From: Promethearchaeia archaeon
Lineage (GTDB): Archaea; Asgardarchaeota; Lokiarchaeia; Sigyniarchaeales; SOKP01
Assembly (NCBI GenBank): GCA_029856145.1
Contig: JAHQWK010000006.1
Location: 1 to 56,235, forward strand
Length of the DNA: 56,235 nucleotides
Direction of reading: 5' to 3'
The notes below the pieces were generated by a model. The model did no database searches. It was not told where the DNA came from and was given only the letters and a program-made list of their open reading frames with translations. The translations under genes and the position numbers were made by a program. Within the stretch, counting starts at the first letter, position 1. Each line of letters opens with the position of its first letter. Of this stretch, positions 24,393 through 35,425 are shown one piece after another.

Positions 24393-25148
24393 TTAAAACC
24401 CGTCAAATTTTGCCCATTCATCTTCTTCCTCTTCTTCTTCATCGTCAACATATTCTTCAATCTTCTCACTTTTAATACCTTCTGAAATCTCTTCTTCGAA
24501 TTCTTCAAGTTCATCTTCAAAGGATATTGATTTTTCCATATCTGTGGTAGTGTCAGCGGAAACCTTTATTTCTGGAATAGGTCCTTCTACTGGTTTCTTC
24601 TTTTCAACTAACTTCAGGTAATCTCCATGAATCTTAATAGTTATTGGAGTTTCTTCCTGTAAGAGCCTTACGACGACCTCCTCACTTGCACTCGAGTCGT
24701 GAGGCATACGCATAACAACTGCTCTCGAACCTTCGAATACTCCACTTATTATTTCAACGGTATCACCTTCTTCTAAATATTCCGTAACACTTCTTGGCAA
24801 TAATACATGTTTCAATTCAATCAATTTAATATTTTGCACTATTCTTCCTTTAATATGAGGTATTCCTTGCACAGCTATTTGAACATCACGTTTCTGAGGT
24901 GCTTCAAAGAATATATAGCCTGGCAATAAGGGAGAAACAAGCATAGCTCTTATATCTGGAATTACATCTAAGATCTTAAACCTATAAAAAATCTGTTTTA
25001 AAATATTACTTTCTTGATTTATTGTTGTTCTCACTGCAAATAGAGTAGTTAGATCTTCTTTTTCTTCAAGTTCCTCTCTACTAATTACTGTTTCCAAATC
25101 TAACTTTTTATTATCAACTCTCTTTACATCTTCTTCTTGATCGGCCAT
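24393..25148 (-). CDS. spt5: Transcription elongation factor Spt5 (NusG family) with acidic extensions
   Basis: FAVRTTINQE, LPGYIFFEA (NGN domain); KOW motif EEGDTVEIISGVFEGSRAVV. Confidence 0.92.
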   Translation of the reverse strand: MADQEEDVKRVDNKKLDLETVISREELEEKEDLTTLFAVRTTINQESNILKQIFYRFKILDVIPDIRAMLVSPLLPGYIFFEAPQKRDVQIAVQGIPHIKGRIVQNIKLIELKHVLLPRSVTEYLEEGDTVEIISGVFEGSRAVVMRMPHDSSASEEVVVRLLQEETPITIKIHGDYLKLVEKKKPVEGPIPEIKVSADTTTDMEKSISFEDELEEFEEEISEGIKSEKIEEYVDDEEEEEEDEWAKFDGF

Positions 25149-25325
25149 TTTTTCTCACGATTCCTATTTGAATTTGGGTTTTTATAAATTTTTTTTTAGA
25201 AAATAAGTATATAATTGTAAAAGATTACAAAATTAAAAATTTTTGCTTTTTATTAAGCTATCAAGGTGTTTTCTTAATTAGAATTTTTTTTATAATGTAA
25301 ATTGTAGCTTGATGAATTTTAACAA

Positions 25326-25715
25326 CTAGAATGGTATATTATTAATATTTAAAATTTCTGGAATCCTTCTGTTCCTTTCAAGCCAAGAAATCTCATGTTT
25401 CAGATATCTCCATGATATCTCGCATTTACCCATCTTGTCATCAGTTTGCGTCTCCCACTCCCACGGATTCACAATCACAAGATCACCAATCCTTATCCAA
25501 ACCCTCTTTTTGATTTTTCCCCGTATTCTACCAATCCTATGTTTACCATCCTCACAGAAAACTTCCATTCGATCATTTCCAAAAACCCCTACCACGCGAG
25601 CAAACATTTCTCCTAATTTTTTACTAGGGAATTTAACACGGGTAACTACAGGCGGTACATAAGGACCACCTCTCCTTTTACTTTTTGATTTTGATTTTCC
25701 TTTTTTTTTTGCCAT
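25326..25715 (-). CDS. eif1a: Translation initiation factor aIF-1A
   Basis: CEDGKHRIGRIRGKIKKRVWIRIGDLVIVNPW...ISWRY. Confidence 0.95.
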   Translation of the reverse strand: MAKKKGKSKSKSKRRGGPYVPPVVTRVKFPSKKLGEMFARVVGVFGNDRMEVFCEDGKHRIGRIRGKIKKRVWIRIGDLVIVNPWEWETQTDDKMGKCEISWRYLKHEISWLERNRRIPEILNINNIPF

Positions 25716-25744
25716 ACTTAGATACTCTTTTTCAATTTTGTAAT

Positions 25745-26080
25745 TTAGATTTTATCTTCAGGTTTATAATCTCCTTTAATAAATACAACTTTAATTGGTC
25801 TATCAGAATCATTTCTGATATTGTGCATTTCTTTTGGTTCACATAAAAATACACTCCCTTGTGGAGCTTTATACTCTTTATCATCAATTATCATCACGCC
25901 ATTGCCTTCTGCGAAATAAAATGTTTCATCAAGTATATTATGTCCATGAGCTTTATCACCCATCATTTCACCAGGTTTAAGTAAAATAACTCCCCAATCT
26001 ATCGAAGGCCCCCTCATAAGATATTTCACACCAGATTCTCCACCTCTATATTCAAAATCCGTTTCATGAACTTTTTTAAT
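25745..26080 (-). CDS. Cupin-domain protein (start extended to a putative ATT codon)
   Basis: AHGH...DETFYF and EPKEMHNIRN cupin motifs; frame is open 17 codons upstream of the GTG, to an ATT 6 nt after GGTGA. Confidence 0.75.
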   Translation of the reverse strand: MKKVHETDFEYRGGESGVKYLMRGPSIDWGVILLKPGEMMGDKAHGHNILDETFYFAEGNGVMIIDDKEYKAPQGSVFLCEPKEMHNIRNDSDRPIKVVFIKGDYKPEDKI

Positions 26081-26216
26081 TGTAAATCACCAATGGTGTA
26101 ATTATGGTATAAAACAAATTATCTAGAGTAAATTATAAATCTTACCTATTATAAAGAGATTCATAGTTTAATATAATAATTCTCGCGACTTCATAAAAAT
26201 ATAAAAGATAAATTTT

Positions 26217-27404
26217 ATGATTCCTCCTTTCAGTTTTGCCAGAATCCCACATATCCTTTTTGGTGCTGGTAAGTTAATTGAACTTTATGATTTTATTCCA
26301 AAATTTGGAAATAATGTCTTATTTGTTATTGGAGGGAGTTCACTAAAACAATCAGGTAACTGGAACAAGATTACTTCTAACCTTGAGAATAAATCAATCA
26401 ATTTTTCATTAGTTTCTATTTCAGGGGAACCATCTCCAACTGTTATTGATGAAATTGTAGCAAAATTTAGAAATAAAAATCTCAAACTAATTGTTGGCAT
26501 TGGTGGAGGGAGTGTTACTGACGCAGGAAAAGCAATTTCTGCTATGCTAACAAAAGATGATTCAATTAAAAATTATCTTGAAGGTATTGGCACTAAAATT
26601 CACGATGGTAAGAAAATACATTATATTGCAATCCCTACAACATCAGGAACTGGGAGTGAAGCAACAAAAAATGCAGTTATTAGTGAAATTGGTCCAGATG
26701 GTTTTAAAAAATCACTTCGTCATGATAATTTAATACCAAACATGGCAATTATTGACCCTGAACTTATGATTTCTTGTCCACCATCGGTTTCAGCGGCTTG
26801 TGGAATGGATGCTTTCACACAACTACTTGAAGCATATGTATCTTCAAAAGCGAGTCCTATTACAGATGCTCTAGCTTATAGTGGAATGAAATTCATGAGT
26901 GAAAATATCCTATTAGCATGCTCTACCGGTGCGTCTGATGTGAATGCCCGAGGGGCAATGGCATATGGTTCATTATTGTCCGGAATTGTTCTTGCTAATG
27001 CGGGTTTAGGAATTATTCATGGATTAGCATCCCCGATTGGAGGTTTCTTCAAAATACCTCATGGAGTAGTATGTGGTACTCTTCTAGCTGAAGCAACTAA
27101 AGTGAATATTGAAATTTTGCAAAAACAAGGACTAGAAGGAAAACTTGGGTTAAAAAAACATGCACAAATAGGAGCATTATTAACAGGTGAACATCATGTG
27201 GAAGCAAATAAGATCCTTGACTATTGTTATACATTAATAGAAGTGCTTGAAAATTGGACCGAAAATTTAAAGATTGATCGATTAGGAAAATATGGTATTG
27301 AAGAAAAAGATATTGATAAAATAGTAGAAAGTGCAGGATTAAAGAACAATCCAGTTAAGTTAAACAAAGAAAGCATTAAGAATATATTACTTAAGAGATT
27401 ATAA
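26217..27404 (+). CDS. Iron-containing alcohol dehydrogenase
   Basis: GGGSVTDAGK, IPTTSGTGSEAT, DAFTQLLEAY, HGLAS...HGVVC. Confidence 0.93.
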   Translation: MIPPFSFARIPHILFGAGKLIELYDFIPKFGNNVLFVIGGSSLKQSGNWNKITSNLENKSINFSLVSISGEPSPTVIDEIVAKFRNKNLKLIVGIGGGSVTDAGKAISAMLTKDDSIKNYLEGIGTKIHDGKKIHYIAIPTTSGTGSEATKNAVISEIGPDGFKKSLRHDNLIPNMAIIDPELMISCPPSVSAACGMDAFTQLLEAYVSSKASPITDALAYSGMKFMSENILLACSTGASDVNARGAMAYGSLLSGIVLANAGLGIIHGLASPIGGFFKIPHGVVCGTLLAEATKVNIEILQKQGLEGKLGLKKHAQIGALLTGEHHVEANKILDYCYTLIEVLENWTENLKIDRLGKYGIEEKDIDKIVESAGLKNNPVKLNKESIKNILLKRL

Positions 27405-27431
27405 GTATGAAATCATTACGGTTATGAGTCT

Positions 27432-27947
27432 CTATAACTTTTTTATAAGTTCTTTTGCTAGCAACTCAAAAGCTAATTGAACGTTTTCTCCTGTTTTTGA
27501 AGAAATTTTTAAATAATTAAAAAAACCATAATTCTCCTTAAGTTTTAATGCAAAATCGTCATCAATAGTAATTTGATCTTTCAAGTCTAATTTTGTTCCT
27601 AAGAATATGATAGGGTTATCAGGATTCTCCTGTCTACAAATGTCAACCCATTGTCCAATTTGTTCTAAACTTGATGGTCTGGTGAGATCAAAGAGTATTA
27701 AGGCACCTCTGGCACCTTTTGCATAATTTTTTAATAGAGGTCTAAAATGCTCCTGACCACCAAAATCCCATACTTGGAGTAAAATTTTATTCCCTTCTAT
27801 GTTAAGTTCTTTTAAAAAAAATTCAACTCCGATTGTCATACGTGTGTCAGCGAGAAATCTGCCTTCAATATACCGATAAAGGAGTGTTGTTTTCCCAACA
27901 CCGCCCTCTCCCGCTGTAACGACCTTTAAAAGTATAGATTTTGGCAC
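27432..27947 (-). CDS. Rab-like small GTPase
   Basis: GEGGVGKT, TIGVEF, WDFGGQEHF, TKLD, ISSK. Confidence 0.92.
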   Translation of the reverse strand: MPKSILLKVVTAGEGGVGKTTLLYRYIEGRFLADTRMTIGVEFFLKELNIEGNKILLQVWDFGGQEHFRPLLKNYAKGARGALILFDLTRPSSLEQIGQWVDICRQENPDNPIIFLGTKLDLKDQITIDDDFALKLKENYGFFNYLKISSKTGENVQLAFELLAKELIKKL

Positions 27948-28066
27948 AGTGTTTCCTCAATTTCATAAATAAATAAAATTTTAGATTATATATTAATCTA
28001 AGAATTACAAGAGTATAAACATTTTTTATTGAAATTTTAAAATGTATTAATTATTTTATATTTTTT

Positions 28067-28510
28067 TTAAGCTCTGTCAATGGATAAATATTTCTTTTGT
28101 CTCAAAAATATTGTATTAATCTTAATTATTTTTGCTTTTTTACGCAATTCTGAATCATTTGTCGCCAGATATATGTTTTGATTTTCCAATTTTAAGTTTT
28201 TTAACATTCTTAGTATAAAATCATCAGTAGTTTCATTTTCTTTTTTGATATACTCCAAGATTCCAATATTATACTTTTGCTTATTTTTTTCTAGGTATAA
28301 TAACCCTGATTCAAGGAACCTTTTAAAATTAGTAGCTCTCGGGTCCCTCTTTCTTTTCGATTCTAATTCATTAAGAATTTGTTGATATATTATAAATCTT
28401 AAGTTTCCTTCAATTTTTAATCGAATTTCATCAAAATAATCTATTTTAAATTGAAAAGGAAGTAAAATGAAATTAGAATCGATTACAACTAAATTCTTAT
28501 TGGATTTCAA
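28067..28510 (-). CDS. PIN-domain ribonuclease, Fcf1/Utp24-like
   Basis: VVIDSNFILLPFQFKID, ILNELE, TDDFIL, LATNDSELRKKA...IFLRQKKYL. Confidence 0.85.
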   Translation of the reverse strand: MKSNKNLVVIDSNFILLPFQFKIDYFDEIRLKIEGNLRFIIYQQILNELESKRKRDPRATNFKRFLESGLLYLEKNKQKYNIGILEYIKKENETTDDFILRMLKNLKLENQNIYLATNDSELRKKAKIIKINTIFLRQKKYLSIDRA

Positions 28511-29028
28511 TAGGCTTGGCGCTCTAATATTTTTCTTGTTAAAACATCGAAAGCTTTTTGAACATTTTCGCCCGTTTTGGAAGAAATTTTGAGATAATCA
28601 ATCAAATTAAATTCACTAAGAAAAGATTTTGCATAATCGTCTTCGACCATGATCTCATCATCTAAATCTAATTTTGTACCTAAAAAGAGAACAGGAAGAT
28701 CTGGGGCACCTTTCCGCACAATATTAAGCCATTGTTGCAAATTTTCTAAAGTGGTTATTCGAGTAAGATCAAACATTAACAATGCCCCCTTAGCTCCTAA
28801 GACGTAACTTTCAAGTAAAAAACGAAATCTTTCTTGTCCACCGAAATCCCAGAGCTGCAATGTACAATGTTTGGAATCAATCTCGGTCTCTTTTAAAAAA
28901 AACTCCACCCCGATAGTCATTTTTGTCTCGGCCGAGAATTTTCCCTCGACATACCTGTGAAGCAGTGTTGTTTTCCCTACTCCTCCTTCCCCTGCAGTCA
29001 TTATTTTGAGTATATACTTGGCCGGCAT
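28507..29028 (-). CDS. Rab-like small GTPase
   Basis: GEGGVGKT, TIGVEF, WDFGGQERF, TKLD, ISSK; paralog of 27432-27947. Confidence 0.93.
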   Translation of the reverse strand: MPAKYILKIMTAGEGGVGKTTLLHRYVEGKFSAETKMTIGVEFFLKETEIDSKHCTLQLWDFGGQERFRFLLESYVLGAKGALLMFDLTRITTLENLQQWLNIVRKGAPDLPVLFLGTKLDLDDEIMVEDDYAKSFLSEFNLIDYLKISSKTGENVQKAFDVLTRKILERQAY

Positions 29029-30765: not shown

Positions 30766-30850
30766 GGTTTCAGACTAAGAATTATTCCGTATTAATTAAA
30801 GATATAATTTATTGCTTAAAAACTTAATTTTAGATGAAAATAAAAAGGTA

Positions 30851-31050
30851 AACCACGTATAACCACATAAAAAAGCGTGACCGGGTATTTTCCTTGTATG
30901 CCATGACCGTAAGCTAACTTACAGTTTGTAGTTTCCCATAGATCGCAACTACAGTACTATCTACAACGCGAAACAAGTTTAACTTCCGGGTTCGGATGGT
31001 TCCAGCGCAGTAGCGAATTGCTACTAATTTATGTGGTTATGAACGTAATT
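30851..31050 (-). repeat. Inverted repeat forming a processing stem with a BHB/BHL motif around the permuted 5S rRNA
   Basis: Perfect 13-bp inverted repeat 30859-30871 / 31028-31040, extended by 8 bp with G-U pairs on the minus strand; GCG-CUGG-AAC pairs with CCGG-UCA-CGC. Confidence 0.85.
30879..30999 (-). rRNA. rrf: 5S rRNA gene, circularly permuted (3' part 30999-30918, 4-nt linker, 5' part 30913-30879)
   Basis: Sense strand reads CCAUCCGAACCCGGAAGUUAA...UAGUACU...GGGAAACUACAAACUGUAAG-UUAG-CUUACGGUCAUGGC...AUACCCGGUC. All five 5S helices pair: I CUUACGG/CUGUAAG, II ACAAG/CUUGU, III ACCCGG/CCGGaaGU, IV CUGUAG/CUAUGG, V UUGUAG/CUACAA; loop E AGUA/GAA. Confidence 0.9.
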
Positions 31051-31057
31051 TTGAACC

Positions 31058-31105
31058 ATTTTATAAGGTCGGTTATTTTATAAGAAAATACTTACTTATA
31101 TATGG
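31058..31105 (-). promoter_or_regulatory. Candidate TATA boxes for the pre-5S transcript
   Basis: Minus strand has two CTTATAAAAT copies and ATATATAAG just upstream of the processing stem. Confidence 0.35.
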
Positions 31106-33823: not shown

Positions 33824-35425
33824 ATGTCTTATAAATTGGAAGATGTAAGTGGAATTGGAAAAGCAACGGCAGAAAGATTAAAAACAGCCAAAATTGATTC
33901 TGTTGAAAAGCTTGCTAACGCTAAACCAGAAGATTTATTAAAGCTAAAAATAAAGGGTGTTGGAAAAGCAACGGCCGAGAAATATATTGCAAATGCAAAA
34001 AAAATGCTAAAAGAAACAGAGATTCCAGAACAATCATCTGGTGAAGTAAAAGAAAAACCTGAAGAAAAATCTGATTCAAAACCTAAAGCAAAACCTAGAC
34101 CAAAGCCAGTTTCAAAAGCGGAGGTTAGTAAGCTAAAAGAATTGATAAAACAACAAGCGGAATGTAATATAGGGCTCGTAGGGCATGTAGATCATGGAAT
34201 TTATTGAAGGGCTCCTTCATAGAACATAAAGACAACCCTAGTAAAAACCCTAACAGGAGATTGGACAGATAGGCATTCGGAAGAGCAAGAAAGAGGAATT
34301 TCAATAAAATTAGGGTATTCTAATGCTACTATTTTATGTTGTCCAAATTGCGACGAGTATATAACATATTACCTAGCTGAACAAGCAAGGAAAAAAGGAG
34401 AAACTCGATTTTTATGCCCTCAATGTAAAGAACAGTTAGAATTTAGAAGAAATATTTCATTCGTCGATGCTCCTGGCCATGAAATCTTAATGGCAACAAT
34501 GTTAAGTGGAGCTTCATTGATGGATGGGGCATGTTTATTAATCGCTGCTGATGAGAAATGTCCTCAACCACAAACAAGAGAACATTTAGAAGCATTACAT
34601 ATTGCAGATATAGAAAACATAATTATACTACAAAATAAAATAGACGCAGTTTCACGAGAGCAGGTAAAGGAGAATTATCAACAAATTAAAGAATTTGTTA
34701 AAGGTACCATTGCTGAAAAAGCCCCCATTATACCAATTTCAGCAGTATTTGGCGCTAATATAGGTTTAGTTTTAAGAGCATTCGAAGAAATTATTCCTTC
34801 CCCTGTACTTAGTGAGGGAGATTTCCAATTTTTAATAGCTAGATCTTTTGATATTAATCGTCCAGGGAAAGAAATCAATAGCTTAAAAGGGGGCGTAATA
34901 GGTGGTTCAGTTTTAAAAGGGAACATCAATATTGGCGATCAAATTGAAATTCGACCGGGTTTAAGAGTTAAAGATAACTATATTCCTCTAAAATCCACTA
35001 TTGTAAGTATTAGTCAAGGAAACAATCTATTGGATAATGCTAAGCCGGGAGGGCTTATAGGTTTAGGAACAAAATTAGATCCCGCTTTAACCAAGGGTGA
35101 TCACTTGATAGGTCATTTGGTTGGAAAACCGGATACTTTACCCGATGTTTTGGATGAAGTAGAATTAAAAGTAAATCTTTTAGATAGAGTAATTGGCGTT
35201 GAACAAATGCTCCGAGTACATTCACTTAAGCATAATGAAAAATTATTATTAGTTGTAGGAACAGAAAAGACGGGAGGTACAGTAACAAAAATCTTAAAAA
35301 ATACTGTTATTCTAAAATTAAATCCTCCAATATGTCCTCCAGAAAAGTTTATCTACGCAATTTCGAGAATTATAAACAGACGTTATCGATTAATTGGATA
35401 TGGAGAGACAGTAAATCATAATTAA
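33824..35425 (+). CDS. eif2g: Translation initiation factor aIF-2 gamma with N-terminal HhH domain, interrupted by a putative 30-nt intron; join(33824..34199,34230..35425), 523 aa
   Basis: Joined frame reads [41 protein letters not shown]...CPNC...CPQC...SFVDAPGHEILMATMLSGA...PQPQTREHL...QNKID...PISA...ARSFDINRPG; the two listed ORFs share one frame. Confidence 0.92.
34200..34229 (+). other. Putative archaeal (BHB-type) intron in aIF-2 gamma mRNA
   Basis: 30-nt insertion inside the P-loop with in-frame TGA and TAG; internal UGAAGG/CCUUCA hairpin; 3-nt bulges AAU and AAA flank the 4-nt helix AUGG/ACAU. Confidence 0.75.

What the first reader, a model, noticed from the sequence alone, without database searches (positions are those of the whole stretch)
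30879..30999. Circularly permuted 5S rRNA gene
Seen: on the minus strand the canonical 3' part of 5S rRNA (CCAUCCGAACCCGGAAGUUAA...AGUA...GGGAAA...CUGUAAG, 30999-30918) comes first. A UUAG linker then leads into the canonical 5' part (CUUACGGUCAU...AUACCCGGUC, 30913-30879). The normal 5' and 3' ends of helix I (CUUACGG/CUGUAAG) are therefore joined by a tetraloop, and the gene is opened in loop C instead. All five helices and loop E pair, so it does not look decayed. Established: permuted genes matured through circular intermediates are known for tRNAs (Cyanidioschyzon, Thermofilum) and for Thermoproteus SRP RNA. I know of no gene-level permuted 5S rRNA. Inference: the ribosome carries either a covalently closed 121-nt circular 5S or a circle re-opened at the UUAG linker. 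Linear 5S models would hit such a gene only partially.
Basis: partly seen in the sequence, partly recalled or inferred. Interest (0 to 1): 0.97.

Follow-up and report, generated by a model that had tools for sequence, protein, structure and literature searches.

The report
Back-to-front 5S rRNA gene, movable break
This Asgard archaeon writes its 5S ribosomal RNA gene back to front between two pairing flanks that carry the cut signal of the tRNA-splicing enzyme, so the RNA is probably cut out and joined into a ring; many Asgard lineages share this layout, and in this family the opening point has moved more than once.

Summary
Confirmed. Window 30999-30879 (minus strand) is a complete 5S rRNA in rotated order: 3' part, UUAG, 5' part. 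Un-permuting raises the score against canonical Asgard 5S from 19.7 to 37.2 bits and gives the textbook fold. It is the only 5S-like locus in the assembly, which lacks its 23S. Its predicted cuts (AA|C, UC|A) rejoin loop C without a scar into a 121-nt circle; EndA and RtcB are encoded. Permuted 5S genes occur in at least 16 Asgard families, mostly opened in loop B. This loop-C form is the same circle rotated 16 nt between unchanged flanks; it occurs in four genera and switched more than once. Relatives carry 30-nt BHB introns inside 5S. Cutting and joining is likely (~0.85); the ring being the ribosomal form is inferred (~0.6), with no RNA data. Permuted 5S is known from brown-algal mitochondria, unspliced; I found no archaeal report. 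This scan found the Asgard layout before on other DNA (87 notes).

The parts
31059..31076 (-). Archaeal promoter-like element: A-rich BRE-like stretch, then TATA box TTATAAAA (31066-31059), 26 nt upstream of the first base of the processing stem
   Evidence: Sequence; same motif at the same spacing in relatives. Function inferred from the archaeal promoter consensus (own knowledge).
31028..31040 (-). Leader arm of the 13-bp outer processing stem; probable transcription start near 31040
   Evidence: Fold; 95.7% of cells paired in 18 loci, 3 pairs with two-sided changes
31009..31025 (-). Small leader hairpin (6 bp) next to the BHB; role unknown
30999..31008 (-). 5' strand of the relaxed BHB: outer helix GCG (31008-31006), central helix CUGG (31005-31002), bulge AAC (31001-30999); predicted cut between 31000 and 30999
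   Evidence: present in 28/28 and 29/29 loop-C loci
30918..30999 (-). Canonical 3' part of 5S rRNA: most of loop C, 3' strands of helices III and II, helix V, loop E, helix IV, 3' strand of helix I
30914..30917 (-). UUAG tetraloop joining the normal 3' and 5' ends and capping helix I
   Evidence: loop variants UUAG/UUUG/UUCG/UCCG in kin, mostly 4-nt loops across the phylum; helix I hairpin covaries
30879..30913 (-). Canonical 5' part of 5S rRNA: 5' strands of helices I, II, III and the first bases of loop C
30875..30884 (-). 3' strand of the BHB: central helix CCGG (30884-30881, also the 5' strand of mature helix III), bulge UCA (30880-30878), outer helix CGC (30877-30875); predicted cut between 30879 and 30878
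30859..30871 (-). Trailer arm of the outer processing stem
30837..30846 (-). T-rich stretch, likely terminator
   Evidence: Sequence; inferred from archaeal oligo-T terminators (own knowledge)

Best explanation
This is the organism's working 5S rRNA gene, a stand-alone unit of about 200 nt. (1) Shown: the 5S sequence is rotated and helix I is closed by a tetraloop. (2) Inferred: transcription from the TATA box gives a precursor whose leader and trailer pair, and the leader's CUGG captures the 5' strand of helix III to form a relaxed BHB (outer and central helix, two 3-nt bulges, no inner helix). (3) Inferred, about 0.85: the two-subunit splicing endonuclease EndA cuts AA|C and UC|A, helix III re-forms and holds the two ends together in loop C, and RtcB joins them into a 121-nt circle with a scarless loop C. 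(4) Inferred, about 0.6 overall: that closed ring, with UUAG kept, is the 5S in the ribosome. (5) Shown in relatives: the flanks act as a fixed holder and the circle sits in it in either of two registers 16 nt apart, because both strands of helix III read CCGG; the register has switched more than once.
For: Score gain on un-permuting and canonical fold. Only 5S-like locus in the assembly. A strict BHB (4/4 central pairs, at least 3 outer) lies on the scarless junction in 114 of 141 permuted loci and at no other offset from -8 to +8, apart from 2 loci at -1 and 19 at -2, a slip of the same helix; loop-C loci 28/28 and 29/29. Three different cut registers all restore the canonical sequence, and each type's predicted junction is encoded intact in the other type. 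In G191 helix III is flipped (CCAG/CUGG) and still pairs with the leader at loop C. Helices covary in permuted order: 28 of 29 pairs change on both sides in 45 genes, helix-I hairpin 99.7% paired. 29-31-nt BHB-bounded introns in the 5S of kin mean the same RNA must be cut and ligated. EndA alpha and beta and RtcB are in the genome, as is uL18. G183 has a full 23S and only a permuted 5S; the two closed Heimdallarchaeum genomes have only permuted copies, and their authors could not predict a 5S. Precedents: Thermoproteus SRP RNA (PMC4731332), circular 23S in archaeal ribosomes (PMC12918454), and E. coli viable with a 5S whose ends are joined by 4 nt and opened in loop C (PMC7283268).
Against: No RNA evidence at all. 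The motif in this window is weak by itself (7 bp, no inner helix); a blind BHB search did not rank it first, and the modelled precursor is 9 kcal/mol above the MFE. This assembly lacks its 23S gene, so a canonical 5S in an unassembled rRNA operon cannot be excluded for G000 itself. The loci counted are kin, not independent. Permuted tRNAs and P. furiosus 23S are re-opened after circularisation (PMC7758197), so a ring need not be final. The linker sequence varies, which fits retention and removal equally.
Confidence: 0.6

Rival explanations
1. Circle as intermediate only: EndA and RtcB make the ring, then a nuclease opens or trims the helix-I loop to give an ordinary linear 5S of about 117 nt.
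For: This is how permuted tRNAs mature and how P. furiosus 23S is re-opened (PMC4267664 discussion, PMC7758197). The linker sits exactly at the normal ends and varies in sequence. Three g16 genomes have a BHB-like insert beside the linker.
Against: No conserved signal at the linker; it is mostly a 4-nt UNCG-like cap on a fully paired, covarying helix, extended by G-C pairs in some families. A 4-nt connector is tolerated in working ribosomes (PMC7283268).
Confidence: 0.22
2. Cut but not ligated: EndA only trims the ends, and the ribosome carries a linear permuted 5S nicked in loop C (or loop B), like brown-algal mitochondrial 5S.
For: Permuted, unligated 5S exists in brown-algal mitochondria (PMC4267664). 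E. coli 5S opened in loop C can function when tethered to 23S (PMC7283268). A nick also keeps all nucleotides.
Against: Kin with one or two internal BHB introns would fall into 2-3 pieces without ligation. The break moves between loop B and loop C with an identical mature sequence, which is expected only if the break leaves no trace. RtcB is present.
Confidence: 0.12
3. Non-functional or accessory copy; a canonical 5S in the unassembled rRNA operon supplies the ribosome.
For: G000 has no assembled 23S; three of five good relatives also lack it.
Against: Covariation and conserved promoter, stem and synteny. One permuted copy in 116 of 130 family genomes, no above-cut-off RF00001 hit in any family member searched. 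Closed genomes elsewhere in the phylum hold only permuted copies.
Confidence: 0.04
4. Assembly artefact or chance arrangement.
For: None found.
Against: Same arrangement with natural sequence variation in dozens of independent assemblies.
Confidence: 0.01

Closest known systems
Permuted, circular SRP RNA of Thermoproteus tenax and T. uzoniensis (Plagens et al. 2015, PMC4731332)
   Same: Permuted gene of a universal RNA missed by annotation; TATA box 26 nt upstream; leader and trailer form a BHB; heteromeric EndA; ligation restores a functional loop; mature RNA circular.
   Different: Here the RNA is ribosomal, the layout spans most families of a phylum, the old terminal helix is kept and capped, there are at least three cut registers, and nothing is shown experimentally.
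Permuted tRNA genes (Cyanidioschyzon merolae; Thermofilum pendens, PMC3218864 abstract)
   Same: Halves in reverse order, BHB at the new ends, circular product.
   Different: In tRNAs the circle is re-opened to free the acceptor ends; 5S has no known need for free ends, so the ring may be final.
Permuted mitochondrial 5S rRNA of brown algae (Valach et al. 2014, PMC4267664; model mtPerm-5S)
   Same: 5S permuted at gene level with helix I closed as a hairpin.
   Different: There the ends lie at the three-way junction, the final RNA stays linear and permuted, and no splicing is involved; here the break is in loop C or B inside a BHB. The window gave no hit to that model.
Circular and circularly permuted archaeal 16S/23S rRNA (PMC7758197, PMC12918454); low-level circular 5S reads in Sulfolobus (PMC3326292)
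   Same: EndA/ligase act on BHB processing stems of rRNA; circular rRNA can be in ribosomes.
   Different: Those genes are in normal order and ligation joins the flanks; PMC12918454 states that 5S is not processed that way, and the Sulfolobus 5S circle was not validated. Here the gene order itself makes ligation necessary to restore the sequence.
Engineered circularly permuted E. coli 5S (Huang et al. 2020, PMC7283268)
   Same: Native ends joined by 4 nt, opened in loop C; supports growth.
   Different: Artificial, and fused into 23S.

Membership tests
5S rRNA (RF00001) | Helices I-V and loops A-E around a three-way junction, about 120 nt | tested here: met
   Fold of the un-permuted sequence; covariation; 121 nt
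5S rRNA (RF00001) | Score above the gathering cut-off in gene order | tested here: not met
   28.9 bits against 38; explained by the rotation, HMM 19.7 to 37.2 bits
5S rRNA (RF00001) | Present in the large ribosomal subunit with uL18/uL5 | not testable with these tools
   uL18 gene present; no RNA or structure data
BHB-spliced permuted RNA genes (SRP RNA, tRNA type) | Halves in reverse order at gene level | tested here: met
BHB-spliced permuted RNA genes (SRP RNA, tRNA type) | Leader and trailer form a BHB whose cuts restore the canonical sequence | tested here: met
   Relaxed form without inner helix
BHB-spliced permuted RNA genes (SRP RNA, tRNA type) | Strict hBHBh' with helices on both sides | tested here: not met
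   No inner helix in this window or most loci; needs a relaxed-specificity EndA
BHB-spliced permuted RNA genes (SRP RNA, tRNA type) | Heteromeric EndA and RtcB encoded | tested here: met
BHB-spliced permuted RNA genes (SRP RNA, tRNA type) | Junction-spanning circular RNA observed | not testable with these tools
   No transcript data available
mtPerm-5S (brown-algal mitochondrial permuted 5S) | Ends at the three-way junction, linear product, match to the mitochondrial model | tested here: not met
   Break is in loop C; no such Rfam hit

The most novel reading that the evidence does not exclude
Most Asgard lineages build ribosomes with a covalently closed 5S ring. Because the ring has no fixed start, its gene is re-written from time to time: the circle re-enters the same leader/trailer holder in another register through the RNA (reverse splicing by EndA/RtcB, then copying back to DNA), which would also explain the repeated gain of 30-nt introns in this gene. 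The permuted state may be ancestral to Asgard archaea, with linear 5S regained in Thorarchaeia, the cultured Loki family and possibly the line to eukaryotes.
Probability: 0.25. Interest if true: 0.95.

Novelty: new variant of a known kind. Interest (0 to 1): 0.85.

Why it matters
5S rRNA is universal and its gene was thought easy to find in all archaea; a 2026 paper still states that archaeal 5S is not processed through circles (PMC12918454). A permuted, splice-dependent 5S in at least 16 families of the closest prokaryotic relatives of eukaryotes explains the 5S genes missing from closed Asgard genomes (PMC8813620). It would make the tRNA splicing enzymes essential for ribosome assembly and predicts a ring-shaped or re-cut rRNA that can be checked in existing sediment metatranscriptomes. 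This window adds a natural control: two break sites 16 nt apart that give the same mature sequence.

Tried and rejected
RF00001 could not be run on the un-permuted string, so an HMM from canonical Asgard 5S genes was used. A blind search for the best BHB in wide windows was noisy and did not rank the window's motif first; the junction-anchored test replaced it. With 3 of 4 central pairs allowed, offset -2 also scored (87/141); this is the same helix slipped and falls to 19 under the strict rule. The sigma-70 promoter scan is not suited to archaea. A GTDB-wide pattern scan gave 62 hits: 8 chance matches with no 5S score, the rest Asgard-type; apparent outsiders were a Loki-type contig in an actinobacterial bin (L160), and genomes labelled Bathyarchaeia (L170) and Thermoproteota (L177) that group with Asgard genomes. 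So none was found outside Asgard, but the pattern caught only about 23 of my known loci and is not exhaustive. No match in phages. A single origin of the loop-C form was not supported: 11 changes (7 forced) on a tree of the neighbouring protein and 7 (2 forced) on the short 5S tree; part of this may be lateral exchange of the locus. Six literature searches found no report of a permuted or intron-bearing archaeal 5S gene; the library lacks most subscription papers. Two Python runs crashed (in part) and were repeated. Direction of change across the phylum was not tested with a rooted tree.

Full report
Observation. The minus strand from 30999 to 30879 reads as the canonical 3' part of 5S rRNA (82 nt), UUAG, then the canonical 5' part (35 nt). 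Rfam finds nothing at gathering level in the window and only a 28.9-bit RF00001 match that borrows leader sequence for the missing 5' part. This is the only RF00001 match in the assembly and the only significant hit of my own 5S HMMs. An HMM from 24 canonical Asgard 5S genes scores the native order 19.7 bits and the un-permuted order 37.2 bits, and the best of all rotations opens at the linker. The un-permuted sequence folds unaided into the five-helix 5S shape.

The gene lies alone between a C25-peptidase-like gene and a 181-aa membrane protein gene. A TATA box (31066-31059) sits 26 nt before a 13-bp leader/trailer stem (31040-31028 with 30859-30871). Inside it are a small hairpin and then a relaxed BHB: outer helix GCG/CGC, central helix CUGG/CCGG, bulges AAC and UCA, each 3' of the central helix, and no inner helix. 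The genome encodes two EndA subunits, one with the Tyr/His/Lys residues and one lacking the His by my reading, and RtcB. Heteromeric EndA has the most relaxed substrate rules (PMC4731332).

Relatives. The DNA matches 23 of 24 genomes of the genus. Across 151 genomes of the phylum RF00001 gives either strong hits or weak, often paired, partial hits. A doubled 5S HMM shows that nearly all weak hits are permuted genes. Permuted genes were seen in 16 families, including Promethearchaeia (this family), Odinarchaeia, Jordarchaeia/Freyarchaeia, Asgardarchaeum and Heimdallarchaeum, and in Kariarchaeota. Linear genes were seen in six families, including Thorarchaeia and the family of Ca. Harpocratesius. 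A covariance model of the permuted form finds 116 of 130 genomes of this family. The two closed Heimdallarchaeum genomes (3.08 and 3.33 Mb contigs) hold only permuted copies, and their authors wrote that 5S could not be predicted (PMC8813620). In 45 permuted genes 28 of 29 modelled pairs change on both sides, and the hairpin-closed helix I is 99.7% paired.

The splice motif is tied to the break. Taking the junction from homology alone, a strict BHB sits on the scarless junction in 114 of 141 loci and at none of the other offsets from -8 to +8, except 2 loci at -1 and 19 at -2. These loci are kin, so this is no p-value, but three distinct registers are used (CGGA|AGUU, CGGAA|GUU, and GGUC|CCAU here) and each restores the canonical sequence. 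A blind motif search was not decisive for this window: the motif is short, and its weight comes from position and conservation.

What is special here. Most Asgard permuted genes open in loop B. The window opens in loop C. This form is in 24 of 53 genomes of the genus, 4 of 42 of a second genus, and single genomes of two more, and in 29 metagenome contigs. Leader up to the cut and trailer from the cut are the same in both forms; only the interior is rotated by 16 nt. Both strands of helix III read CCGG, so the leader can pair with either. Loop-B kin encode this window's predicted junction intact, and this window encodes theirs. The two forms are interleaved on a tree of the neighbouring protein (11 changes, 7 forced). 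Some loop-C genes are closer in mature sequence to loop-B genes than to other loop-C genes: G122 differs from G250 at 2 positions, and contig L279 has the same 121-nt circle as G211. G191 has a flipped helix III that still pairs with the leader at loop C. So the register changed several times; lateral exchange of the locus may account for some of the pattern. Whether the change runs through RNA or through duplication and deletion in DNA is open.

Introns. About 30 family members carry 29-31-nt inserts in the 5S at five or more sites (loop C, helix IV, helix I beside the linker), most with a full 4-bp central helix at their borders; removal restores the intron-less sequence. Such genes need ligation, which argues that the terminal cut is ligated too.

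Mechanism and odds. Shown: rotated, conserved, structurally intact 5S inside a BHB-bearing stem, with the enzymes present. Inferred: EndA cutting and RtcB joining to a 121-nt circle (about 0.85); the ring being the ribosomal form (about 0.6), against re-opening at UUAG (0.22), a permanent nick (0.12), or a non-functional copy (0.04). The assembly lacks its 23S, so a hidden linear 5S cannot be excluded for this genome alone, though G183 has a full 23S and only the permuted gene.

Comparison and novelty. It works like the permuted SRP RNA of Thermoproteus (PMC4731332) and permuted tRNAs. Engineered E. coli 5S with a 4-nt connector and opened in loop C is viable (PMC7283268). Six searches found no report for archaea. 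I class it as a new variant of a known kind. Earlier notes of this scan describe the Asgard layout in at least 67 genomes, introns included; two word searches found no note on the moving break. I used those notes only as leads.

Noticed in passing
L009, L014-L016, L018, L024, L105, L111, L112, L203-L214, L235-L243, L252, L254: 29-31-nt BHB-type introns inside permuted 5S genes at five or more sites; some genes have two; the length is strikingly uniform. I know of no described 5S intron.
   Followed up: partly
L207 (G237), loop C: The 31-nt insert contains a 17-nt copy of the gene's own helix II/III segment, suggesting an intron born by local duplication.
   Followed up: partly
L112, L252, L254 (genus g16): A 30-31-nt insert in helix I directly beside the linker with a 3/4 central helix; cleavage without ligation here would re-open the ring near the normal ends.
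   Followed up: partly
L086, L185, L186 trailer (G122, G266, G267): After the loop-C break the trailer holds a stretch resembling the old loop-B end (CUGGAAGUU); possibly a relic of duplication, weak.
   Followed up: partly
L064 (G170, Thorarchaeia family): A linear 5S gene with an insert of about 30 nt near loop B/helix II, perhaps also an intron.
   Followed up: no
L197 (G032, Ca. Harpocratesius) and G039, G281: Linear 5S genes in tandem (three copies 374-375 nt apart in G032) in the family sister to this one; a possible source or product of permutation.
   Followed up: no
L063, L065, L093, L104 leaders: In Heimdallarchaeum and family f15 an extra hairpin interrupts the outer helix of the BHB in the leader; possibly an intron in the leader.
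   Followed up: no
L160; L170; L177: A Loki-type 5S on a contig of an actinobacterial bin (probable contamination); genomes titled Bathyarchaeia and Thermoproteota that group with Asgard genomes (probable mislabels).
   Followed up: partly
window 33824-35425 (+): The eIF2-gamma gene appears broken: an ORF with an extra N-terminal helix-hairpin-helix-like part ends just after the GHVDHG motif, and the rest starts at 34490; frameshift, insert or assembly error.
   Followed up: no
window 24393-29028 (-): Spt5, eIF1A-like, two Rab-like small GTPases and a PIN-like gene cluster, typical of Lokiarchaeia (Spt5, others by eye).
   Followed up: no
window 31009-31025 (-): Conserved small hairpin in the leader, between outer stem and BHB; function unexplained.
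   Followed up: partly
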